Assembly (NCBI GenBank): GCA_001775475.1
Contig: MEWW01000010.1
Span: forward strand, 5,143 to 69,142
Direction of reading: 5' to 3'
Length of the DNA: 64,000 nucleotides
From: Candidatus Adlerbacteria bacterium RIFCSPHIGHO2_12_FULL_53_18
GTDB taxonomy: Bacteria; Patescibacteriota; Minisyncoccia; Phycocordibacterales; SBAW01
Under the pieces are notes generated by a model that did not search any database, was not told the DNA's origin, and saw nothing but the letters and a program-made list of their open reading frames with translations. Position 1 is the stretch's first letter; every line of letters starts with the position of its first letter. The position numbers were made by a program, and so were the translations under genes. Of this stretch, positions 17,207 to 34,947 are shown one piece after another.

Positions 17207-18184
17207 ATGCGCGTCCTCGCCCCCACCCAGGGCGAGGCGCTTTCTTTTTTTCACTATCCGCGCTACAAGTGTCTTGTGCCTACTCGTAAAATCATCGCCG
17301 TTGTGGGCCCCACCAGCTCGGGCAAAAGTGCCTTGGGCATTTACCTTGCGCAAAAGCTCGGCGGCGAGGTTATATCCGCCGACTCGCGGCAGGTGTACAA
17401 AGGGCTCGACATCGGCACCGGCAAAGTAACGAAGAAAGAAATGGCGGGTGTCCCTCACCACCTGCTTGATGTCGCATCGTCCAAGAAAGTCTTTACCGCC
17501 GATGATTTTGTAAAGAAAGCGGAGCGGGTAATAAATACTTCGATATATCGAAGTATTTTGCCTATTATAGTTGGCGGCACGGGGTTTTATGTAGACGCGC
17601 TGCTCGGAAGGCTCGTGATCCCGAATGTGCCTCCCAATCCTGCCCTGCGCGCCAGGTTAGAAAAAAAGAATATTGAAGAGCTTTATACTATGCTGAAGAA
17701 AAAAGACTTTGCGCGGGCAAAGACAATAGAACCTAAACACAAACGGCGTATTATACGAGCAATTGAAATTGCCACGGCGCTTGGGAAAAACCCCACGCCC
17801 GCTAAAAATGAGAAGTATGAGGTGCTCTGGCTCGGTCTCTCCCCCGCCCCTGCTAAACTAAAATCAAATATTCATAAGCGCCTTCTGGCACGGATGAAGC
17901 AAGGCATGATTGCCGAGGCAAAGCGGCTACACGCGCAAGGTCTCTCCTACAAGCGCATGGAAGAACTGGGCTTAGAGTATCGGGCGCTTGCGCGGCACCT
18001 CCAGGGTAAAACTACCCGGGCAGAAATGTTGGCCAAACTTGAGCGCGAAATAAATAAGTACGCCAAGCGGCAAATGCGCTGGTTTAAGCGCAACAAAGAT
18101 ATCCGCTGGGTCGGAGACAAAGCGGAGGCTCTAAAGCTGAGCGAGGCATTTTTACAGGGTCGCATTCGTAGAGTATCTTTATAA
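17207..18184 (+). CDS. miaA: tRNA dimethylallyltransferase
   Basis: IIAVVGPTSSGKSALGIYLAQKLGGEVISADSRQVYKGLDIGTGK (P-loop), DPKH-like region. The exact start is uncertain (GTG/TTG alternatives near 17276). Confidence 0.8.
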   Translation: MRVLAPTQGEALSFFHYPRYKCLVPTRKIIAVVGPTSSGKSALGIYLAQKLGGEVISADSRQVYKGLDIGTGKVTKKEMAGVPHHLLDVASSKKVFTADDFVKKAERVINTSIYRSILPIIVGGTGFYVDALLGRLVIPNVPPNPALRARLEKKNIEELYTMLKKKDFARAKTIEPKHKRRIIRAIEIATALGKNPTPAKNEKYEVLWLGLSPAPAKLKSNIHKRLLARMKQGMIAEAKRLHAQGLSYKRMEELGLEYRALARHLQGKTTRAEMLAKLEREINKYAKRQMRWFKRNKDIRWVGDKAEALKLSEAFLQGRIRRVSL

Positions 18185-18185
18185 A

Positions 18186-18731
18186 GTGATAGTCTTTGTT
18201 TTTCTTGCACTTGGTTATACAACAGTAATAGTGCTTGGTTTGCTTTGGTTTTATGACACATTTTGGGGCGGAGAAGACTTTGCAACGTCAGAACATGCCA
18301 TTCAAAAGATCAGCGAGATAGTTTCTGCCAAAAAGTCAGATGGACTTTTGTACGACCTTGGAAGTAGTCGTGGACATGTTGTATTCAGTCTGCTGAAAAG
18401 AGTCCCTAACTTACAGACTGTTGGAATAGACAATAGTTACTTAAGAGTTTGGAGTGCAAGATTATTGAGCTTCTTTTATGACGGTAATCCCATATTTAAA
18501 AAAGGAGATTTCTTTAATACAGATATCTCTCGAGCCGACTTTGTATATCTCTATGTTCCAAGAGAACTGCTCCCTACCCTGGCACTAAAGCTGAAAAAAG
18601 AACTTAAACCTGGAGCACAAATAATTACATACCGTATTACATTTTCTGACTGGAAACCTGAGCAAGTCTTTTTAGTAGATTCTAAAGATCCTGAAAAAGA
18701 AAACGTATACGTCTATTCGAGCGGGCGATGA
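18186..18731 (+). CDS. small class I SAM-dependent methyltransferase-like protein (low-GC gene)
   Basis: N-terminal TM, GxGxG-like LYDLGSSRGHV, acidic loop GIDNS. Local GC is markedly lower than the flanks. The last ~10 nt overlap the tRNA-Trp 3' end. Confidence 0.4.
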   Translation: MIVFVFLALGYTTVIVLGLLWFYDTFWGGEDFATSEHAIQKISEIVSAKKSDGLLYDLGSSRGHVVFSLLKRVPNLQTVGIDNSYLRVWSARLLSFFYDGNPIFKKGDFFNTDISRADFVYLYVPRELLPTLALKLKKELKPGAQIITYRITFSDWKPEQVFLVDSKDPEKENVYVYSSGR

Positions 18732-18792
18732 GGGAATCGAACCCCCAATAGTGGTTTTGGAGACCACTGTTATACCATTTAACTAATCGCCC
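18722..18792 (-). tRNA. tRNA-Trp (anticodon CCA)
   Basis: GGGCGAT-TA-GTTA AATGGTA TAAC-A-GTGGT CTCCAAA ACCAC-TATTG-GGGGG TTCGATT CCCTC-ATCGCCC-G. Confidence 0.8.
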
Positions 18793-18809
18793 TGTGGCGA
18801 CAGTGTATC

Positions 18810-18965
18810 TTATTTTTTCGCTTCTTTAAAGACGACGTGCTTGCGGAGCTTTTTGCTGTACTTTTTGAGCTCAATCTTGCGCGTAACAAGCTTCTTGTTT
18901 TTGGTAGTCCAATATACCTCGCCCGTCGGCGCATGCTTTAAAATGATGAGGCTATCCTGCGACAT
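18810..18965 (-). CDS. rpmG: 50S ribosomal protein L33 (51 aa; below the ORF-track cutoff)
   Basis: Manual translation MSQDSLIILKHAPTGEVYWTTKNKKLVTRKIELKKYSKKLRKHVVFKEAKK* matches the L33 consensus (..TTKNK.....KLELKKY.P..RKHV.YKE.K). The conserved tRNA-Trp/rpmG adjacency is present. Confidence 0.7.
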   Translation of the reverse strand: MSQDSLIILKHAPTGEVYWTTKNKKLVTRKIELKKYSKKLRKHVVFKEAKK

Positions 18966-18986
18966 AGGGTTAAAACTATATACCAC

Positions 18987-19679
18987 CTACCGCAAGAGGT
19001 CAAATGACGTCCCGTTCCAGAGTGCGACGGTAGTCCCCTCCTCATAGCTGGACCCGTTCCATATGTATCTAACTATTCGAGTCAAATAGCCCGTGTCTCC
19101 ATGTACTGACAAAAGTAAATCACTGTAACTGTTGGTCTTTGTGGAAAGGATCCCTACCCACTCATAGGTAAGCGTGGTAAATATGAGCTGCCACTTTGTA
19201 CCATTTTTTTTGTGAATATCCACGGGGCAGCCGGCTGTTCCACAATAACCCGGCATATCGAGGCGTACGAACGCCTCTGTCGTGCCGTCTCCGTCGAGGT
19301 CCTGTAGAGCCACACCAATTATAGGTTCCGGTGCCGTGGGGTAGAACTTTTTGTAGTCTTCAAACTCTACTTTATAAAGTGCGTATAAGTCTCCGCTTCC
19401 GCCCGTCGAGGTGGCTACGTTGGAAAATGCAAGGCGCTTCGCTCCAAGCGTTGCAAACACCGACGCATAAGACATATCCGGATCGATTTCAGCTCCTTGT
19501 GAGGACACTGGCACCGTTACCGTTTGAGTGTAGTCCGGGTTGGTGGAAATTGACTGGTTTTGCCCCCCAAGCTCTACCGGTGTGTTATCGCTTTCCTGCA
19601 GCAGGTACCAAACTCCCACTCCTCCTAACCCGAGAAGGGCCACCACTGCTATCAAAATACTGAGAGTTTTTATCTGCAT
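18987..19679 (-). CDS. membrane-anchored secreted hypothetical protein
   Basis: N-terminal TM (LSILIAVVALLGLGGVGVWYLL) then a Thr/Gly-rich extracytoplasmic domain. No family recognised. Confidence 0.45.
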   Translation of the reverse strand: MQIKTLSILIAVVALLGLGGVGVWYLLQESDNTPVELGGQNQSISTNPDYTQTVTVPVSSQGAEIDPDMSYASVFATLGAKRLAFSNVATSTGGSGDLYALYKVEFEDYKKFYPTAPEPIIGVALQDLDGDGTTEAFVRLDMPGYCGTAGCPVDIHKKNGTKWQLIFTTLTYEWVGILSTKTNSYSDLLLSVHGDTGYLTRIVRYIWNGSSYEEGTTVALWNGTSFDLLR

Positions 19680-19682
19680 ATG

Positions 19683-20900
19683 TTATTGCAAAATTATACT
19701 CCTCGCGTTTGCCACGTTAGGTACGTACGAACGGGTTTCGGCGTAGCCCGAGTTTGCCGTACACTGCCACCAGGTTTGGCCCGGACAGTCGAAGCTTCGG
19801 TTATTTGCTCTGGGGCCTCCATTGTACGCTGCTATCGTGTTGGTACTTCTGCCAAACTGGCCTTCCATTTGAGTTAAATATTTAACGCCAAGCGTCATGT
19901 TGTAGACAGGATCTTTCAAACGAGCGGTGATTTCCGAGTTCGACAGCCCCGCAAGAGACGAGTCGAGCCCCCTTGCAGTGTCAGGGCATACCTGCATTAA
20001 CCCGACACAGCGGGCAGGGCTCACCGCCCCCGCGTTGCCGTTAGACTCAATCGCCATCACTGCTTGTGCCATTTCACAGTCACTGTAACCCTGCTGTCTG
20101 CAAATGGTCTGCAGTTGTGCGGCATACTGGTTAGTGCCTTGTATTTTTGCCTCAAGCTGGGCGACAGAGAAGATGCGTGCGTTCGGGTCGGTGGTGAGCG
20201 GCCCGGTTAAGCCTGCGGTCGTGGACACGATAGTGGGTTCGACTTGGTCGCAAGCTTCTTGAAATTGACATGAAGAATTAACACAGACTTGCTGCATCTG
20301 GTTGTACTTGTATCCATTGGGACATGTGACTTGTATGACACTGCCTGGTGACGACCCTGAGGGGGCCGAAATGGCTTTAATTGGAAGAGGGGTGGTTGGA
20401 ATAACCTCGCCAAGAAGATCACTCAAACTTGCGTTTCTTAAGCGCTCTTCCCTGCTGCACTGGAGTTCGTTCCAGCTACCTCCTATCCAAAAGTCCTGGT
20501 CAAACACGACGCTCAGCAGAGTCTGCACAACAAGGTAGGCTGAAATCGCGATTAAAAAGCCGATGAGTACACTTTTAAATATCTTATGTGCCTTGCTTAT
20601 CTGAGTGGGGTTTGAGCCTCCGGTCACATAGAGAAACCCGGCATAGGCAAACATTGCCGCCGCGACTGAGACTGAAAGTCCGATAAGGAAGTTGATAATG
20701 TTCTGCATCAACTGCCCCAGGCTGCATAGATCGCAACCTGTAGTTGTTCTTATGTATTCGCTGTAAGCGGGAGTATTCTGTTCTGGTATCGGCCCTTCCC
20801 ACACTCCACAAGGGACTAACCCCTGCGCGTCCGCAATCAGAGGAATGGAGAGCCACAACAATGCAGCTACAAAAAAGAGCAAAGCACGCTGCTTTTGCAT
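19683..20900 (-). CDS. fusion protein: VirB2/TrbC-like pilin module (signal peptide + two TM helices) + Cys-rich linker + family-1 lytic transglycosylase (SLT) domain
   Basis: Signal peptide ending ADAQG. TM1 INFLIGLSVSVAAAMFAYAGFLYV, short loop, TM2 SVLIGFLIAISAYLVVQTLL, the same layout as the 32.2-33.7 kb pilin paralogs. C-terminal SLT motifs AIESNGNAGAVSPARCVGLMQV (catalytic Glu; ES..S.AxGLMQ) and AAYNGGP. Confidence 0.6.
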   Translation of the reverse strand: MQKQRALLFFVAALLWLSIPLIADAQGLVPCGVWEGPIPEQNTPAYSEYIRTTTGCDLCSLGQLMQNIINFLIGLSVSVAAAMFAYAGFLYVTGGSNPTQISKAHKIFKSVLIGFLIAISAYLVVQTLLSVVFDQDFWIGGSWNELQCSREERLRNASLSDLLGEVIPTTPLPIKAISAPSGSSPGSVIQVTCPNGYKYNQMQQVCVNSSCQFQEACDQVEPTIVSTTAGLTGPLTTDPNARIFSVAQLEAKIQGTNQYAAQLQTICRQQGYSDCEMAQAVMAIESNGNAGAVSPARCVGLMQVCPDTARGLDSSLAGLSNSEITARLKDPVYNMTLGVKYLTQMEGQFGRSTNTIAAYNGGPRANNRSFDCPGQTWWQCTANSGYAETRSYVPNVANARSIILQ

Positions 20901-20932
20901 GGTTTTATTGTAGCACCTAATTTTTATACAAG

Positions 20933-21016
20933 TGCGCCGGGTAGGATTCGAACCTACGTAGCCACAAGGGCGCTTGGTTTACAGCCAAGTGCGATTGACC
21001 GCTCCGCCACCGACGC
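20933..21016 (-). tRNA. tRNA-Tyr (anticodon GTA), long variable arm
   Basis: GCGTCGG...CTTGG CTGTAAA CCAAG-CGCCCTTGTGGCT-ACGTAGG TTCGAAT CCTAC-CCGGCGC-A, 84 nt. Confidence 0.75.
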
Positions 21017-21060
21017 AAGAACCTCCTTACTTTACACCGTTTAGCTGCAATTGTCAGCGC

Positions 21061-22299
21061 TCAAAAATTTTCGGCAATCGCCGGAGCTTTTTGCGTATGA
21101 GGCTGCTCCCATAAGTCCCATAGATGCTTGGCCACATGCACCGGCGTGCCATAGAGAGGTTCCAAGTGCAGGTCTATCCATGGCAGCGAGTTTGCCTCGA
21201 TTATTCCCCACATTTGGGATTGAGGGCTCTCTTTCGGATTTTGAATAATCAAATCAAATCCGACCACCGGAAGCTTCGTAAGCCTGGCTGCGCGCTCTAT
21301 CTCTTTTTTAAGCTCGGGGTGTATGTCGGTACCGTGTTCCCACGTCCTGCCGCCGGACAAACGACCTGCCCAGTAAACCAGCGGGAGCATCTTGCCCTTC
21401 TCTAACACGCTATCTAGCGTATAACCGCGCCGCTCAACATAGCACTCGTGCAGAGGAGTAATCTCTATATCTTCAACCCGCACAGGTTTGTTTTTATTTT
21501 CCCTCTCGACGAGCTCACGGACGGTCGAGCTGCCGTCGCCCACGACCGTCGGATATTTAGACTCTAAAAACCCGATCATCTGGCCGTTGACGCAGGTGGC
21601 GCGGCCGACATTTCCCTCCAGATGCTGCTCGATAGCTACCCAATGGCAAAGTTTTTTAGCGGACGCAAATGCCTTTACGAGCTCTGCGGAAGTTGAAACA
21701 TGAGGAAAGGTATGCCGTCCGTTTGAGCCGGTACGCGGCTTAACACACGCGGTACCTAACTGTTTGAGCGCGGCGCTCGCCTGGTGCAGAGTTGAGACAC
21801 TGAAAGAGAGGGGTGCGGCAACTCCTGCCTCTTTAAACTTCTGCTTTAACAGATGTTTGTCGTCGGCCCACAGCGTTCCTGCGCGGTATATGGGTGGTAT
21901 GGGTAGGCTGTAAAAAATGCGCATCATGCCGAAAATATTGGCCTCAAAAAACTCGGTGGGGATTCCAAATACAAAAAACTGCTGCATGGGGATGCCGCGC
22001 AGCCGTGCCTCTTGCCATACTGCGCGTGAGCGCTTGGTGCACGCCTGCTCTAAATCGTCATTACGAGACACAACGTGTAAGAACTCTGCCGCCCGAAACA
22101 AAGGCGGCAACACCGGCGCCACCAGACGGGCAAAGCCGCGCGAGCATGCAGAGAAAAAAGCGGAAAGCCGTGTAGGAGCCCCAAGCGAGCTTATGCCGAT
22201 TTCAAGCGTACTGCTCACCCATACAGACCAATGGTCGGCTGAGACCGCGCCGCACTCAGAGCAGTATTTTTGGATGCCCTTTCCTACAGTGAGTTGCAC
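21061..22299 (-). CDS. ATP-grasp peptide-ligase-like protein (cyanophycin synthetase/RimK-like ATP-grasp domain) with an N-terminal CxxC motif
   Basis: ACVKPRTGSNGRHTF (ATP-grasp K-loop), VVGDGSSTVRELVERENKN (CphA-like GDG.sTi.eLi), C-terminal acidic/Mg-binding region FDLIIQNP. 412 aa, no Mur-ligase domain. Confidence 0.45.
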   Translation of the reverse strand: MQLTVGKGIQKYCSECGAVSADHWSVWVSSTLEIGISSLGAPTRLSAFFSACSRGFARLVAPVLPPLFRAAEFLHVVSRNDDLEQACTKRSRAVWQEARLRGIPMQQFFVFGIPTEFFEANIFGMMRIFYSLPIPPIYRAGTLWADDKHLLKQKFKEAGVAAPLSFSVSTLHQASAALKQLGTACVKPRTGSNGRHTFPHVSTSAELVKAFASAKKLCHWVAIEQHLEGNVGRATCVNGQMIGFLESKYPTVVGDGSSTVRELVERENKNKPVRVEDIEITPLHECYVERRGYTLDSVLEKGKMLPLVYWAGRLSGGRTWEHGTDIHPELKKEIERAARLTKLPVVGFDLIIQNPKESPQSQMWGIIEANSLPWIDLHLEPLYGTPVHVAKHLWDLWEQPHTQKAPAIAENF

Positions 22300-32214: not shown

Positions 32215-32490
32215 TTATCGTATGCCCTTTAACTCTACGTTCGCTCCCACGGCGTTGATTATGATAAGCACTATTGCAGAGGCTATAACCATGACGAACA
32301 TCCCAACCATACCCCAGAGCATGTGTTTTTTACCACGCTCCCTGGCATCGGTTTCGGCATTAAGGCCGTAGAGAAACTCCACCAGCCCAAAGACAAATAT
32401 CAAAAGCCCGACGGCAAAAACCAGAAGCATTATCGGGTCTATGACGTAGTCGACAACGAGCCTGCGGAGATCTACGAGATCATCCCTCAT
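32215..32490 (-). CDS. VirB2/TrbC-like pilin-family small membrane protein (paralog 1, 91 aa)
   Basis: Short N-terminal segment, TM1 IMLLVFAVGLLIFVFGLVEFLYGL, charged loop NAETDARERGKKHM, TM2 LWGMVGMFVMVIASAIVLIIINAV. Confidence 0.5.
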   Translation of the reverse strand: MRDDLVDLRRLVVDYVIDPIMLLVFAVGLLIFVFGLVEFLYGLNAETDARERGKKHMLWGMVGMFVMVIASAIVLIIINAVGANVELKGIR

Positions 32491-32498
32491 GAGAGCTG

Positions 32499-32861
32499 TT
32501 ATCTGGGTGTATTAGGTGCCTGTAGATTTTGTTCAGCGTCCCGGTTGGATTGGATATTAAGCACGCCTTGTGCAAGGCGGATAATGCCCCACACCGACAC
32601 CATCACGAAGAGGCCTACCAAGCCGGCAATCATAATCTTCTTACCCGTCTCTGCCTCCGGCTTGCGTATGTACTGAACCAAACCCCAAAAAAATACTATG
32701 AGACCGAATGCTATGAGGATAGGAATGACATTATCGAGAAGATCTCGCGTACCCCCCACAAGAGACTGAAAGTAGCCAAAATTGATTGCCCCTGTCCCGC
32801 CTTGTGCAGATGCTAGTAAAGGGAACAGGCCGAGTGAACCAGCGATTATGGTCTTTTTCAT
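32499..32861 (-). CDS. VirB2/TrbC-like pilin-family small membrane protein (paralog 2; start at the internal ATG; the ORF track extends to 32909)
   Basis: Signal peptide MKKTIIAGSLGLFPLLASAQG, TM1 VIPILIAFGLIVFFWGLVQYI, loop RKPEAETGKKIM, TM2 IAGLVGLFVMVSVWGIIRLA. Confidence 0.5.
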   Translation of the reverse strand: MKKTIIAGSLGLFPLLASAQGGTGAINFGYFQSLVGGTRDLLDNVIPILIAFGLIVFFWGLVQYIRKPEAETGKKIMIAGLVGLFVMVSVWGIIRLAQGVLNIQSNRDAEQNLQAPNTPR

Positions 32862-32932
32862 AAAAAATTTATTATATATCCACTTTAACAGCTGGGGAGT
32901 CGAACTCAAGACTGCAGTGTGGATAGTCGCAT

Positions 32933-33229
32933 CTACACTTCGAGTATCTCCACGGTGTTGCCGCGCTCCTCTTCGTAGCGCTCGTTGGTGTAAGGTACTA
33001 GCTGCTTAAATATGTTGATGATCCCCCAGATAGAAAAAAGGATAAAAAGTGCCAAAAGGCCCCAACCCATAGCCCTGCGCTCCTCGCTTTTGCCGTGTGC
33101 GTCGCCCGCCTTGGCTATGTAGCGCACTACGATTATAAGAAAAAGGACCAGCACCACCCCTCCCAAAGTCGAGACGGTGAGGTCAATAAAATCGACTATC
33201 GGGTATACAATATCGTCCCTCAAATTCAT
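32933..33229 (-). CDS. VirB2/TrbC-like pilin-family small membrane protein (paralog 3, 98 aa)
   Basis: TM1 LGGVVLVLFLIIVVRYIA, loop KAGDAHGKSEERRAM, TM2 GWGLLALFILFSIWGIINIF. Acidic C-terminal tail. Confidence 0.5.
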   Translation of the reverse strand: MNLRDDIVYPIVDFIDLTVSTLGGVVLVLFLIIVVRYIAKAGDAHGKSEERRAMGWGLLALFILFSIWGIINIFKQLVPYTNERYEEERGNTVEILEV

Positions 33230-33654
33230 ATGTCGATGTTAAGCCGCGCCAGCGTCCCCACGATTACCTCAGTGATAAGCCATGCGCCAAAAAAGACGGC
33301 AATACCCACCACGGTGTAAAGCAAATTGGTCTTAGCTTTGTCAAGTTCGGTAGGATTGCCGCGCGCCCAGACAAAACGAAAGCCTGCGATAACGATAAAA
33401 AGTACCGCTACAGGGAGACCTATGATAAATGTACCATCGAGTATGGCTTTAATAAGTTCAGGAAATGAATCAATATCTCCGAGAGGGTTGGAGAGTTTTA
33501 CAAAATTGCTATTACTACTGCCGCCACCTATTCCCCCGTCACTCCCACCCCCTAACCCTCCATCCGACCCTCCACCGATGGCCGCTATAGATACGAAAGG
33601 AAAGCAGACAAAAGTAACGAAGAGAAAAACAAAAAAAATATATTTTCCTTTCAT
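33226..33654 (-). CDS. VirB2/TrbC-like pilin-family small membrane protein (paralog 4) with a GGGSDGG tandem-repeat linker
   Basis: Signal peptide/TM MKGKYIFFVFLFVTFVCFPFVSIAAIGGG, (GGGSDGG)x3 repeat, then TM1 FIIGLPVAVLFIVIAGFRFVW, loop ARGNPTELDKAKTN, TM2 LLYTVVGIAVFFGAWLITEVIV. Overlaps the upstream gene by 4 nt. Confidence 0.5.
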   Translation of the reverse strand: MKGKYIFFVFLFVTFVCFPFVSIAAIGGGSDGGLGGGSDGGIGGGSSNSNFVKLSNPLGDIDSFPELIKAILDGTFIIGLPVAVLFIVIAGFRFVWARGNPTELDKAKTNLLYTVVGIAVFFGAWLITEVIVGTLARLNIDI

Positions 33655-33657
33655 ACT

Positions 33658-34947
33658 TTATCTCCCTACAAGTTGCCGCAGCCCCTGGGCGGCGGTGTTG
33701 ACAGCGTTTGCGGGCTCGGCACCGCCGCTTATCACCGATTCTATCATGGCCTGAAAGATGTCATCGGTGGCCTCTGGCTCTGGGTCGAGCCAGCCGCGTG
33801 CGATAAGCGCTGCCCCGGCAAACACGCCTGCCGCGGCATTTGCCGAGGTATCAAACACAACATCGCGGCGCACGGGCGGCAGCCCTGTTGCCTGTGCCAC
33901 CAGTGCGATAGTCTCTGCACTCACAAGCTTTTCCGCAATGATTGCCGCGCCTTCGATATTGCGGGCGGAGCGCGGGATAGCGAGCCCTGTCATCCGACCG
34001 AAGGTGGCACTTGAGAGTGCGCCTTCAACCTGCGGCACCTGCGCTACGGAAAAGCGCAGGTTGGGGTTGCGTGCCGCGATAGCGTTAAACTCGCTTACAA
34101 AACCGAAGTACAAGGCCACGTCGCCGGCAACAAAAGCGTTGGTGGAAAGAGGGAGGCCCCTGTTCCACGAGTAGGTGGTTTTAGTGGGGTTGGCAAAGTC
34201 GGTATAAAACCGCAGCGCCGAAGGCGCATCAGCCGAGCCGCCGCCTGTTGCAGAGCCTAAAACCGGCAAGAGTGCGCCGTCCTCTCCGCGCACGACTACC
34301 CGGTCGCCCGCCTGCATAAAGAGAGTTGAGAGTATTTCCTTAGCGTGCGCGACGTTGCTCCACGTGCCAAGTGCCACGGCGCTCTTGGTTATGTTGGAGC
34401 GGTCGAGCGCGGTCACCTTGGGCGCCACAGCGAGGAGCTCGTTCCAGTAGCGCGGCGGCTCGCCCAACCCAGCAGTCGCAAGCAAGTCGCGGTTCCAGTA
34501 CATAACCAGGGGGTCGATAGTAAATGGCAGAGCAAGCTCACCCTGCGTGGTTAAAAACAGCTCGCTCTCGTCGACAAATGAGTTAAGGAAGACGTTTTGC
34601 GACACGAGCCGATACGGGATCGTAATGATTTTGTCGGAAAATGAGTGGAGCTTGTCGCTATCTATCAAAAAAAGGTCGGGCCCCGTGCCTGCGGCCATGG
34701 CGTTGAGAAGCTCGGTGTCGTAGGTGGCCGGGTTTTTCTCTGTATAGGAAACATCCTGAAATGTTTCGTCGGCGTTTCGGAGCGAGGTCAACACATTGTT
34801 CATCATCGTCCCGTCGAGCGTACCCCAGATAACCACCTGTCCGGTGCCGCCACCGCCAAGCACACCACCAAAGGAAGCAAACACGCCAACGCCTATGAGT
34901 ATAAGTGCGGCGCAGACGCCAAGAACGATGATCTGAAAGGTCGACAT
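33658..34947 (-). CDS. membrane-anchored extracellular solute-binding protein (ABC-type SBP family 1-like), orphan
   Basis: N-terminal TM, Gly-rich linker, then an SBP fold pattern (VVIWGTLDG..., AAGTGPDLFLIDSDKL, LPFTIDPLVMYWNRDLL). There are no permease or ATPase genes nearby. Confidence 0.5.
   Translation of the reverse strand: MSTFQIIVLGVCAALILIGVGVFASFGGVLGGGGTGQVVIWGTLDGTMMNNVLTSLRNADETFQDVSYTEKNPATYDTELLNAMAAGTGPDLFLIDSDKLHSFSDKIITIPYRLVSQNVFLNSFVDESELFLTTQGELALPFTIDPLVMYWNRDLLATAGLGEPPRYWNELLAVAPKVTALDRSNITKSAVALGTWSNVAHAKEILSTLFMQAGDRVVVRGEDGALLPVLGSATGGGSADAPSALRFYTDFANPTKTTYSWNRGLPLSTNAFVAGDVALYFGFVSEFNAIAARNPNLRFSVAQVPQVEGALSSATFGRMTGLAIPRSARNIEGAAIIAEKLVSAETIALVAQATGLPPVRRDVVFDTSANAAAGVFAGAALIARGWLDPEPEATDDIFQAMIESVISGGAEPANAVNTAAQGLRQLVGR

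What the first reader, a model, noticed from the sequence alone, without database searches (positions are those of the whole stretch)
19683..20900. Single polypeptide fusing a VirB2-like pilin module to an SLT lytic transglycosylase (VirB1-like function), beside tRNA-Tyr
Residues ~1-135 comprise a signal peptide ending ADAQG, then a ~35-aa segment with a Cys pair, TM1, a short loop and TM2. This matches the small pilin paralogs at 32.2-33.7 kb. A Cys-rich linker follows (CPNGYKYNQMQQVCVNSSCQFQEACDQ). The C-terminus is a family-1 lytic transglycosylase with the catalytic AIESNGN..GLMQV and AAYNGGP motifs. In type IV secretion systems VirB1 (the transglycosylase) and VirB2 (the pilin) are separate proteins. 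A covalent fusion would anchor a peptidoglycan-cutting domain in the membrane through a pilin fold. The gene lies between a secreted protein (18987..19679) and tRNA-Tyr, close to tRNA-Trp.
Basis: partly seen in the sequence, partly recalled or inferred. Interest (0 to 1): 0.7.

Follow-up and report, generated by a model that had tools for sequence, protein, structure and literature searches.

The report
Pilin-anchored cell-wall cutter in Patescibacteria
One gene of this ultra-small (Candidatus Adlerbacteria) bacterium really does join a secretion-pilus subunit to a cell-wall-cutting enzyme; the design is common in this bacterial group, apparently undescribed, and probably supplies the "missing" wall-opening enzyme of their type IV secretion machinery.

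Summary
Observation confirmed. ORF 19683-20900(-) is one uninterrupted 405-aa protein (OGC84703.1, Ca. Adlerbacteria RIFCSPHIGHO2_12_FULL_53_18). It has a Sec signal peptide, a Cys-bearing outer segment, a T4SS_pilin (PF18895) two-helix hairpin, a disordered linker, a small Cys-rich beta module and an intact family-1 lytic transglycosylase (SLT).

The fusion is not an artefact. 43 of 69 relatives carry both domains, and a full-length profile finds 756 clusters (50% identity) at E<=1e-30. Named genomes that carry it are almost all Patescibacteria.

In 16 more distant loci the pilin-SLT gene lies in a virB4 operon, usually last: split VirB4, second pilin-module protein, beta-propeller, DsbA (in about half), pilin-SLT. 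In the Adlerbacteria/Kaiserbacteria lineage, this window included, it lies in a housekeeping block (ClpB ... tRNA-Tyr, fusion, partner, rpmG, tRNA-Trp, miaA). A published survey found no VirB4 in this draft genome.

The same pilin module also occurs on SLT_3, CHAP and other lysozyme-like domains, and its evolutionary history differs from that of the enzyme part.

Best reading: the patescibacterial equivalent of VirB1, a wall-cutting enzyme anchored or targeted through a VirB2-type pilin module. The papers I could search do not describe it. New variant of a known kind; moderate interest.

The parts
19683..20900 (-). Whole ORF, 405 aa: pilin-module / lytic-transglycosylase fusion (OGC84703.1, A3F55_02455, UniProt A0A1F4XUI2)
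20826..20900 (-). Sec signal peptide, aa 1-25. Predicted cleavage A-D-A|QG (AxA rule, read from the sequence).
   Evidence: Sequence. Helix 2-27 in the model. M1, P20 and A25 are conserved in the alignments.
20721..20825 (-). N-terminal extracytoplasmic segment, aa 26-60, with the GLVPC motif and Cys31, Cys56 and Cys59. A fourth conserved Cys148 follows helix 2.
   Evidence: Alignments. The same GLVPC...C motif occurs in stand-alone pilins.
20505..20720 (-). T4SS_pilin (VirB2-like) hairpin, aa 61-132: two hydrophobic helices joined by the loop GGSNPTQISKAHKIFKS, which is positively charged and therefore predicted to be cytoplasmic.
   Evidence: Pfam PF18895, 31.2 bits. AF2 helices 58-93 and 98-132. 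Profile hit to the paralog at 33226-33654, 46.9 bits. hhalign against VirB2, 66.9%. 99% amino-acid identity to P0003.
20340..20504 (-). Low-confidence, probably disordered linker, aa 133-187. Includes the conserved W143 and C148.
   Evidence: pLDDT <50 for aa 167-187. Conservation.
20220..20339 (-). Small four-Cys beta module, aa 188-227 (CPNGYKYNQMQQVCVNSSCQFQEAC).
   Evidence: AF2 strands 188-227, pLDDT about 84-89 for aa 190-210. One relative gives a weak cEGF hit.
19689..20165 (-). Family-1 lytic transglycosylase (SLT) domain, aa 246-404. Includes a family-specific C-terminal motif CPGQTWWQC..N.GYAETR.YV.
   Evidence: Pfam SLT, 69.2 bits. Foldseek hits to MltE, Slt70 and MltC/D/F. Invariant columns. 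The motif served as the genome-scan pattern.
20046..20048 (-). Codon of the predicted catalytic Glu285 (E-S motif).
   Evidence: Invariant E285-S286 in 18 relatives. Codon read.
18987..19679 (-). Conserved downstream partner: a 230-aa protein with an N-terminal membrane anchor. It starts 3 nt after the fusion's stop codon. Function unknown.
   Evidence: conserved in L001/2, L006, L009, L029; L037
20932..21016 (-). tRNA-Tyr, 31 nt upstream of the fusion's start codon; possibly the same transcript.
21029..21057 (-). Sigma-70-like promoter match upstream of tRNA-Tyr (weak evidence only).
32215..33654 (-). Array of four small T4SS_pilin paralogs (33226-33654, 32933-33229, 32499-32909, 32215-32490). 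These are the candidate major pilins with which the fusion's module could interact.

Best explanation
Shown. The gene encodes a genuine single polypeptide, exported by Sec and held in the cytoplasmic membrane by a VirB2/T4SS_pilin-type helical hairpin. A flexible linker, a small disulfide-rich module and a catalytically intact family-1 lytic transglycosylase follow the second helix and therefore lie outside the membrane, next to the cell's own peptidoglycan. The protein belongs to a large family specific to Patescibacteria. In many lineages that family is encoded in the virB4 (type IV secretion) operon.

Inferred. It is the patescibacterial functional equivalent of VirB1 or PrgK, the enzyme that opens the wall locally so that the T4SS or pilus can pass. 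The pilin module is more than a plain anchor. Because it looks like a pilin subunit, it probably brings the enzyme to the place where the small VirB2-like pilins are assembled, either by docking to the assembly platform or by co-assembling with them at the base or start of the filament. Wall cutting would then be confined to that spot.

In the Adlerbacteria/Kaiserbacteria lineage the gene has moved to a housekeeping locus: tRNA-Tyr, fusion, partner, rpmG, tRNA-Trp.
For: Architecture and intact active site.

The hairpin is pilin-like:
- PF18895 above its cut-off.
- The hairpin profile ranks three of the window's four pilin paralogs as its top three non-self hits among 375 ORFs.
- The nearest relatives of the module include complete stand-alone pilins of 126-158 aa, two of which also hit TrbC PF04956.
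- hhalign against real VirB2 gives 66.9% probability, E 5e-5, over both helices, with LMQNIINFLIG aligned to MVNNICTFILG.

The fusion is conserved: 66 of 69 relatives carry T4SS_pilin and 43 carry SLT. 756 clusters reach E<=1e-30, and the best 150 nearly all span both parts.

Link to T4SS:
- 14 of 21 genome loci, plus L005 and L030, carry TraC-like (VirB4 N-domain), VirB4 ATPase, unknown genes, a second pilin-module protein, a beta-propeller and pilin-SLT on one strand. DsbA is present in 7 of the 16.
- Pfam confirms pilin+SLT in the loci tested from Saccharibacteria-labelled and other MAGs.

The module is constrained far beyond what an anchor needs:
- 99% amino-acid identity over aa 61-135 to P0003, against 50% in the SLT domain, with 17 synonymous changes and 1 non-synonymous change.
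- 78-83% identity to proteins whose C-termini are unrelated.

The many conserved extracytoplasmic Cys residues fit the DsbA gene found next to the fusion in the operon-type loci.

Literature:
- Patescibacterial T4SS and its PF18895 pilins are essential in Southlakia (PMC10633639).
- The survey PMC12102498 says most genomes with VirB2 lack a VirB1. This family would fill that gap.
- Monoderm VirB1-like enzymes are normally membrane-anchored, as reviewed in PMC12857230.
Against: In this window the gene has no T4SS neighbour. The large ORFs are ClpB, TopA, RelA, GyrA and tRNA synthetases.

None of the loci of the Adlerbacteria/Kaiserbacteria/Nomurabacteria type has VirB4 within the flank fetched, 10 kb where the contig allows.

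The published survey lists this assembly (GCA_001775475.1, 540 kb, draft) as VirB4-negative. The two VirB4-negative assemblies are the smallest of the seven Adlerbacteria assemblies seen in the held part of the table, so this may reflect incompleteness.

No experiment exists for any member of the family. Southlakia's virB4-linked hydrolase (SEML1_0006) is annotated without a pilin module.
Confidence: 0.6

Rival explanations
1. Housekeeping autolysin. In this lineage the protein is a general membrane-anchored lytic transglycosylase used for wall growth, turnover or daughter-cell separation. The pilin-derived hairpin survives only as a convenient two-helix anchor, with no working connection to a T4SS.
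For: The gene sits in a syntenic housekeeping block: infB-rbfA, aminotransferase, ClpB, fusion, partner, rpmG, miaA, pyrF, parB, relA, topA. It lies between tRNA genes and next to rpmG, which suggests constitutive expression. VirB4 was not detected in this assembly.
Against: A plain anchor would not keep 99% amino-acid identity, with 17 synonymous changes against 1 non-synonymous, while the enzyme domain drifts to 50%. It would also not keep specific motifs shared with stand-alone pilins. The sister clade is encoded inside virB4 operons. The genome keeps a four-gene pilin array.
Confidence: 0.2
2. Pilus-borne or pilin-delivered weapon. The pilin module inserts the protein into the T4SS pilus as a minor or tip subunit, so the hydrolase is displayed on the filament and cuts the host bacterium's wall during episymbiosis. 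The interchangeable C-terminal hydrolases are polymorphic effector heads, and the downstream gene may be a protective partner.
For: The same highly conserved N-module carries SLT, SLT_3, CHAP, Lysozyme_like, Destabilase-like and phage-lysozyme domains. The module and the enzyme part have different histories: third-codon-position identity is 0.77 against 0.34. Tandem paralogs with different C-termini share one locus (L007, L008, L010). A conserved small exported partner lies directly downstream. A long flexible linker follows helix 2. In solved conjugative pili both pilin termini face the outside (my own knowledge of the F and T pilus structures, not tested here).
Against: There is no evidence that PF18895 proteins form pili at all. 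A 270-aa appendage on a pilin is sterically demanding. The partner is missing in some loci (L003), and it is conserved rather than varying together with the head. The locus is inherited vertically within housekeeping synteny, unlike typical polymorphic toxin loci. All the heads are wall hydrolases, which is also what a self-wall 'space-maker' needs.
Confidence: 0.17
3. Artefact: two neighbouring genes (a pilin and an SLT enzyme) joined by a sequencing, assembly or frameshift error, or a chance match of a hydrophobic segment to the pilin model.
For: The PF18895 score is only 4.6 bits above its cut-off. Hydrophobic helices attract spurious profile hits, for example the weak hits to a choline-transporter family in Pfam and to GPCRs in the PDB search.
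Against: The single ORF has no stop or frame change. The identical protein occurs on 12 contigs from independent sources. The architecture recurs in hundreds of clusters of 30-60% identity. The linker and the Cys module are themselves conserved. Three of the four window pilin paralogs, rather than other membrane proteins, are the top three hits of the hairpin profile.
Confidence: 0.02

Closest known systems
VirB1 of Agrobacterium-type (MPF_T) type IV secretion systems, and relatives such as P19 and TrbN
   Same: A family-1 SLT lytic transglycosylase dedicated to a T4SS. In the operon-type relatives it is encoded with virB4. In classical systems virB1 lies right beside virB2.
   Different: VirB1 is a soluble periplasmic protein, separate from the pilin. 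Here the enzyme is covalently attached to the C-terminus of a pilin-like hairpin. The order is pilin then SLT, the reverse of the virB1-virB2 gene order. The host is a monoderm. In this window the gene is not in a T4SS cluster.
Monoderm conjugation hydrolases PrgK (pCF10), TraG (pIP501), TcpG and CwlT
   Same: T4SS-associated wall hydrolases of monoderms that are held at the membrane by an N-terminal hydrophobic segment and often combine SLT with CHAP or other lytic domains (PMC12102498; PMC12857230). The patescibacterial family likewise carries SLT, SLT_3 or CHAP heads.
   Different: Those anchors are not reported to be pilin-like, and those systems have no VirB2 pilin. Here the anchor is a signal-peptide-bearing two-helix T4SS_pilin module that is homologous to the organism's own pilins. 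I found no sequence relationship outside the SLT domain: plasmid matches cover only aa 195-404.
VirB2/TrbC pilins and the PF18895 pilin arrays of Patescibacteria (Southlakia SEML1_0014-0019; surveyed in PMC12102498)
   Same: Signal peptide, two hydrophobic helices and a short basic loop. PF18895 match. The closest relatives of the module include stand-alone pilins with the same GLVPC...C motif. The window holds a four-gene array of such pilins.
   Different: Pilins are about 90-160 aa and end shortly after helix 2. This protein continues for 270 more residues into an enzyme. Whether it can polymerise is unknown.
Structural subunit fused to a wall hydrolase in other machines: FlgJ (flagellar rod cap + muramidase), evolved VgrG-3 (T6SS spike + hydrolase), phage tape-measure proteins with SLT domains
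   Same: The same design logic: a wall-cutting domain is attached to a building block of the machine, so cutting happens only where the machine crosses the wall. This comes from my own knowledge of those systems. Phage and plasmid tape-measure/SLT hits were seen.
   Different: No homology outside the lysozyme-like domain. The carrier here is a T4SS pilin-type membrane hairpin, a combination the papers I searched do not describe.
E. coli membrane-bound lytic transglycosylases MltE/EmtA, MltC and Slt70
   Same: Best structural matches of the C-terminal domain (Foldseek E about 1e-4, probability 1.0). They share the E-S, GLMQ and AYNGG motifs.
   Different: Those enzymes are lipoproteins or soluble periplasmic proteins of diderms with housekeeping roles. 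They lack the pilin module, the Cys-rich linker module and the C-terminal CPGQTWWQC..GYAETR signature.

Membership tests
Family-1 lytic transglycosylases (Pfam SLT, PF01464) | Profile match above the curated cut-off | tested here: met
   69.2 bits against a cut-off of 21.3, aa 270-370
Family-1 lytic transglycosylases (Pfam SLT, PF01464) | Catalytic Glu in the E-S motif, plus the GLMQ and AYNxG motifs | tested here: met
   E285-S286, G300/Q303 and A357/Y359/N360/G362 are invariant in 18 relatives
Family-1 lytic transglycosylases (Pfam SLT, PF01464) | Lysozyme-like fold resembling solved lytic transglycosylases | tested here: met
   AF2 pLDDT >95 for aa 246-404. Foldseek hits MltE, Slt70 and MltC/D/F with probability 1.0.
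Family-1 lytic transglycosylases (Pfam SLT, PF01464) | Cleaves the MurNAc-GlcNAc bond and forms 1,6-anhydro-MurNAc | not testable with these tools
   Needs an enzyme assay
T4SS_pilin (PF18895) / VirB2-TrbC pilins | Profile match above the curated cut-off | tested here: met
   31.2 bits against 26.6. 66 of 69 relatives also match.
T4SS_pilin (PF18895) / VirB2-TrbC pilins | Signal peptide followed by two hydrophobic helices joined by a short basic loop | tested here: met
   Sequence. AF2 helices 58-93 and 98-132 with loop GGSNPTQISKAHKIFKS.
T4SS_pilin (PF18895) / VirB2-TrbC pilins | Detectable homology to experimentally established VirB2/TrbC | tested here: inconclusive
   hhalign against a six-sequence VirB2/TrbC alignment: 66.9% probability, E 5.3e-5, 64 columns. 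Close stand-alone relatives and one window paralog hit TrbC PF04956. A profile search of PDB sequences found no pilin, and the fold searches were non-specific.
T4SS_pilin (PF18895) / VirB2-TrbC pilins | Small stand-alone subunit that ends soon after helix 2 | tested here: not met
   405 aa, with 270 residues after helix 2
T4SS_pilin (PF18895) / VirB2-TrbC pilins | Polymerises into a conjugative or T4SS pilus | not testable with these tools
   No experiment on any PF18895 protein was found in the papers read
VirB1-type T4SS-dedicated wall hydrolases (including monoderm PrgK/TraG) | Encoded within the T4SS (virB4) gene cluster | tested here: not met
   Not met in this window or in close relatives. 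Met for the more distant branch of the same family in 16 loci.
VirB1-type T4SS-dedicated wall hydrolases (including monoderm PrgK/TraG) | A T4SS (VirB4) is present in the same genome | tested here: inconclusive
   Table S1 of PMC12102498 lists GCA_001775475.1 as VirB4 'No'. It is a 540-kb draft, and 5 of the 7 Adlerbacteria assemblies seen in the held part of the table are 'Yes'.
VirB1-type T4SS-dedicated wall hydrolases (including monoderm PrgK/TraG) | Needed for, or stimulates, T4SS or pilus assembly | not testable with these tools
   Genetic test needed
Polymorphic effector with immunity partner | Conserved N-terminal delivery module with interchangeable C-terminal activity domains | tested here: met
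   SLT 43, SLT_3 8, CHAP 3, others. N-module 78-83% identical beside unrelated C-termini. Mosaic history.
Polymorphic effector with immunity partner | A cognate protective gene directly downstream that varies together with the head | tested here: inconclusive
   The partner is conserved in 6 loci, absent in L003 and replaced by a different gene in L007. Binding was not tested.

The most novel reading that the evidence does not exclude
Patescibacteria build a hydrolase-armed T4SS filament. Pilin-module proteins carrying interchangeable wall-degrading heads (SLT, SLT_3, CHAP, lysozyme-like) co-assemble with the small VirB2-like pilins as minor or tip subunits. The pilus then enzymatically drills through the epibiont's own wall and the host bacterium's wall. 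Mosaic exchange between the pilin module and the heads would adapt the tool to different host walls.
Probability: 0.17. Interest if true: 0.85.

Novelty: new variant of a known kind. Interest (0 to 1): 0.55.

Why it matters
The type IV secretion system is essential for the one genetically tractable patescibacterium (Southlakia), and unlike other monoderm systems it has VirB2-like pilins (PMC10633639; PMC12857230). The main survey concluded that most genomes with VirB2 lack a VirB1, and that pilus biogenesis may therefore not need one (PMC12102498).

This analysis points to a large, conserved family in which the wall-cutting enzyme is attached to a pilin module. A pilin HMM would score such a protein as a pilin, which may be why that survey, which found VirB1 with CONJScan profiles, did not count it as VirB1. 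In many lineages the gene lies in the virB4 operon.

That gives a concrete candidate for the missing VirB1 function. It also gives a testable mechanism for confining wall lysis to the assembly site, and a possible route by which epibionts attack host walls.

For this window alone the result is more modest: one member of that family, located away from any T4SS genes.

Tried and rejected
2. Profile search of PDB sequences with the N-module alignment. Only GPCR and ion-channel membrane helices appeared, at E about 0.2.
3. The search for related loci with the 18-sequence alignment failed because no stretch was conserved enough. It was repeated with 13 closer sequences. Only one C-terminal peptide pattern was used, so the 21 loci are a narrow sample and not a census.
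4. I looked for the fusion in Table S3 of PMC12102498. The stored file is cut before the Adlerbacteria rows, and 'SLT' and 'PF01464' do not occur in the part held.
5. Southlakia's essential 'lysozyme' next to virB4 (SEML1_0006) is annotated without PF18895. Its essentiality therefore cannot be transferred to this family.
6. tblastn against 72,556 plasmids and 50,697 phages matched only the SLT part, aa 195-404 at most. There is no sign of the fusion on known mobile elements.
7. Partner protein: no PDB relative and no NCBIfam family, only weak FG-GAP and beta-propeller hints.
8. The frameshift/assembly artefact and the chance-match explanations were rejected (see rivals).
9. GC content across the gene (0.50-0.51 against a window mean of 0.53) gives no sign of recent foreign origin.
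10. I ran no further search on finding VirB4 in this genome. A distant VirB4 query would return thousands of hits, and the relevant one would probably be cut from the list.
Full report
**1. What is at the coordinates**

ORF 19683-20900 on the minus strand is a single open frame of 405 codons starting with ATG. It begins 31 nt after tRNA-Tyr (20932-21016, minus). Three nucleotides after its stop codon comes a 230-aa ORF (18987-19679, minus), then a 58-aa ORF and tRNA-Trp (18721-18792, minus). In the related locus L037 the gene at the position of the 58-aa ORF is ribosomal protein L33.

The identical protein is on record as OGC84703.1 / A3F55_02455 / UniProt A0A1F4XUI2. [quoted passage not shown] The published survey classes this genome as Paceibacteria, phylum Patescibacteria/CPR.

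**2. Domain anatomy**

Pfam assigns two domains:
- SLT (PF01464) at aa 270-370, 69.2 bits against a cut-off of 21.3.
- T4SS_pilin (PF18895) at aa 61-128, 31.2 bits against a cut-off of 26.6.

NCBIfam finds only partial matches to murein transglycosylases, and a weak one to a Mycoplasma ICE 'pilin-like conjugal transfer protein'.

An AlphaFold2 model built on 69 relatives (mean pLDDT 82.7) shows these elements:
- a signal helix, aa 2-27;
- a short helix, aa 44-53;
- two long helices, aa 58-93 and 98-132, forming a hairpin;
- a low-confidence stretch, aa 133-187;
- a lysozyme-like domain, aa 246-404, with pLDDT above 95.

Foldseek matches that last domain to MltE, Slt70, MltC, MltD and MltF. The catalytic E285-S286 and the GLMQ and AYNGG motifs are invariant in 18 relatives.

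Topology, read directly from the sequence: the signal peptide ends A-D-A|QG, and the loop between the helices (GGSNPTQISKAHKIFKS) is basic. After cleavage the N-terminal segment and everything after helix 2 therefore lie outside the membrane. That is where a wall-cutting enzyme must be, and it is the known topology of VirB2-type pilins.

Conserved cysteines (C31, C56, C59, C148, C266/C275, C372/C380, plus four in the beta module) all lie in the outside parts.

**3. Is the hairpin really pilin-like?**

Evidence in favour:
- The four small ORFs at 32215-33654 all match PF18895. One scores 45 bits and also matches TrbC/VirB2 at 25.5 bits. The other three score 23-25 bits, just under the cut-off.
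- A profile of the fusion's hairpin, searched against all 375 window ORFs of 50 aa or more, ranks three of these paralogs as the top three non-self hits (46.9, 10.8 and 9.7 bits). The fourth (32933-33229) scores only 1.8 bits, level with background.
- A database search with aa 1-140 alone returns pilin-sized proteins. Six of them (126-158 aa) look complete. They are 36-53% identical and carry the same GLVPC...C motif, and two also match TrbC.
- I built an alignment of annotated VirB2/TrbC proteins from six plasmids and compared it with the module's alignment. hhalign gives 66.9% probability, E 5.3e-5, over 64 columns covering both helices.

Evidence that was uninformative or negative:
- Fold searches cannot tell this hairpin from thousands of others.
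- A sequence profile finds no solved pilin structure.

My conclusion is that membership of the PF18895 family is well supported and that the link to classical VirB2 is probable but not proven.

**4. Is the fusion real and recurrent?**

Yes.
- Of 69 relatives, 66 match T4SS_pilin and 43 match SLT.
- A profile of 18 full-length members, run against 1.84 billion cluster representatives, finds 756 proteins at E<=1e-30. The best 150 (all <=1e-58) almost all align across both parts.
- A scan of one genome per species found 21 loci. Most named ones are Patescibacteria: Paceibacteria, Kaiserbacteria, Nomurabacteria, Saccharibacteria, Parcubacteria.
- No plasmid or phage record matches anything but the SLT part.

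**5. Genomic context: two settings**

(a) Housekeeping setting. This applies to the window and its closer relatives: L001-L004, L006, L007, L009, L010, L029, L037, and L008 in part. The gene sits in a conserved block: infB-rbfA, aminotransferase, a 266-aa protein, ClpB, [fusion], partner, rpmG, miaA, pyrF, parB, relA, topA. No VirB4 lies within the flank fetched, 10 kb where the contig allows. Some lineages carry two tandem pilin-module genes with different C-termini at this spot (L007, L008, L010).

(b) Operon setting. This applies to 14 of the 21 genome loci, plus L005 and L030. The pilin-SLT gene is on the same strand as, and usually last in, this operon: TraC-like, VirB4 ATPase, a 183-aa protein, one or two further proteins including a second pilin-module protein, a beta-propeller, DsbA in about half of the loci, then pilin-SLT. 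The 'TraC-like' protein is the N-terminal domain of a split VirB4. Pfam confirms T4SS_pilin plus SLT in the operon-type loci tested, including MAGs labelled Saccharibacteria.

The family as a whole is therefore tied to the T4SS, but this window's copy is not physically linked to one. Table S1 of PMC12102498 records this 540-kb draft assembly as VirB4-negative. Five of the seven Adlerbacteria assemblies seen in the held part of that table are positive, and the two negatives are the smallest.

**6. Modularity**

The N-module also occurs on SLT_3 (8 relatives), CHAP (3), Lysozyme_like, Destabilase and phage-lysozyme domains. 'Unassigned' C-termini give weak hits to RPF-like transglycosylase, destabilase or SLT_3 models. 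Every head I could identify is a wall hydrolase.

Several relatives keep 78-83% identity in the module beside unrelated C-termini.

Against P0003, which has the same synteny (L037), the two parts differ sharply:

| Region | Amino-acid identity | Third-codon-position identity | Other |
|---|---|---|---|
| Hairpin, aa 61-135 | 99% | 0.77 | 17 synonymous changes, 1 non-synonymous |
| SLT domain | 50% | 0.34 | - |

The hairpin has both a more recent common origin (a mosaic gene) and very strong purifying selection. That is much more than a passive anchor needs, and it points to specific packing or docking interactions.

**7. Mechanism**

Shown: the architecture, the intact catalytic motifs, an outside-facing enzyme, family-level linkage to virB4 operons, and a modular and tightly constrained pilin module.

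Inferred: the protein acts as the VirB1/PrgK equivalent of the patescibacterial T4SS. Its pilin module takes it to the site where the small pilins are assembled, so that the wall is opened only there.

This agrees with what is known of monoderm T4SS hydrolases, which are membrane-anchored and often multi-domain (PMC12102498; PMC12857230). It also follows the general design of FlgJ or evolved VgrG, where a structural unit carries a hydrolase (my own knowledge of those systems).

Rivals:
- A housekeeping autolysin that merely inherited a pilin-derived anchor. The synteny and the missing VirB4 favour it. The conservation of the hairpin argues against it.
- A pilus-displayed hydrolase aimed at the host wall. 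The interchangeable heads, the mosaic history, the flexible linker and the conserved downstream partner favour it. There is no direct evidence for it.

**8. Relation to the literature**

The papers I could search describe patescibacterial VirB2-like pilins and pilin arrays, and VirB1 homologues found with CONJScan profiles (PMC12102498). They report essential T4SS and pilin genes in Southlakia (PMC10633639), and they review these systems as the only monoderm T4SSs with pilins (PMC12857230). None mentions a pilin-hydrolase fusion.

PMC12102498 states that most genomes with VirB2 lack VirB1. Its PF18895 search would have scored such fusions as VirB2. Public databases do carry the automatic two-domain annotation, so the architecture is visible but not interpreted.

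I rate it a new variant of a known kind: a T4SS-associated wall hydrolase with a pilin-type carrier.

**9. Verdict**

- Observation: confirmed.
The caveats are that the fusion belongs to a large family and is not a singular event, and that this genome's copy lies outside any T4SS cluster.
- Confidence in the architecture: about 0.95.
- Confidence in the T4SS-coupled, pilin-targeted mechanism: about 0.6.
- Interest: 0.55.

Noticed in passing
window 61-135 aa of ORF 19683-20900(-) vs L037:104-1258: Mosaic conservation. The pilin hairpin is 99% identical in protein and 92% in DNA to P0003 (third-codon-position identity 0.77), while the rest of the gene is about 35-50% identical (third-position identity about 0.35). 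This points to module exchange plus very strong purifying selection.
   Followed up: partly
window 18987-19679(-): A 230-aa membrane-anchored protein is conserved directly downstream of the fusion in L001/2, L006, L009, L029 and L037. It shows only weak similarity to FG-GAP and to the beta-propeller of the T4SS operons, and has no PDB or NCBIfam relative. Its role (regulator, inhibitor or partner of the hydrolase) is unknown.
   Followed up: partly
window 32215-33654(-) and 33658-34947(-): Four abutting or overlapping T4SS_pilin genes form an array directly downstream of a solute-binding-protein gene (SBP_bac_8) on the same strand. No VirB4, VirB6 or other T4SS gene was recognised among the window ORFs scanned.
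   Followed up: partly
L030:34-2637 and equivalent positions in L011-L018, L020, L023-L024, L027: In these patescibacterial T4SS operons VirB4 is split into two genes: a 'TraC-like' (PF26593) protein of about 220 aa that matches the VirB4 N-terminal domain, and an ATPase of about 630 aa.
   Followed up: partly
L030:4057-5028, L010:9899-10945, L007:8916-9965, L008:10965-12053: Second pilin-module proteins of about 320-360 aa, with C-terminal domains that match no Pfam family, sit beside the pilin-SLT genes both in the virB4 operons and at the ClpB-miaA locus.
   Followed up: partly
L013, L015, L025, L019: Contigs from MAGs labelled 'uncultured Gammaproteobacteria' (L013, L015, L025) carry the patescibacterial virB4 operon with its pilin-SLT gene; the 2.5-kb contig labelled 'Balneolia' (L019) carries a match to the fusion only. 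They are probably mis-binned or mislabelled contigs.
   Followed up: no
window 21061-22299(-): A 412-aa ATP-grasp ligase resembles part of cyanophycin synthetase (146 bits, far below the family cut-off). It is conserved upstream of the pilin-module genes in L007.
   Followed up: no
window 18000-18999 (ORF 18186-18731 +): A 1-kb block with GC 0.418, against a window mean of 0.53, covers a methyltransferase-like ORF next to tRNA-Trp.
   Followed up: no
L031-L036 (MPF_T plasmids): In classical systems virB1 (SLT) ends at or overlaps the start of virB2. The two functions are already adjacent there, but in the opposite order to the patescibacterial fusion.
   Followed up: yes
window 1-64000: The window holds 14 tRNA genes in 64 kb. 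The fusion-partner-rpmG group is bracketed by tRNA-Tyr and tRNA-Trp, with a promoter-like site upstream of tRNA-Tyr (21029-21057, minus strand).
   Followed up: no
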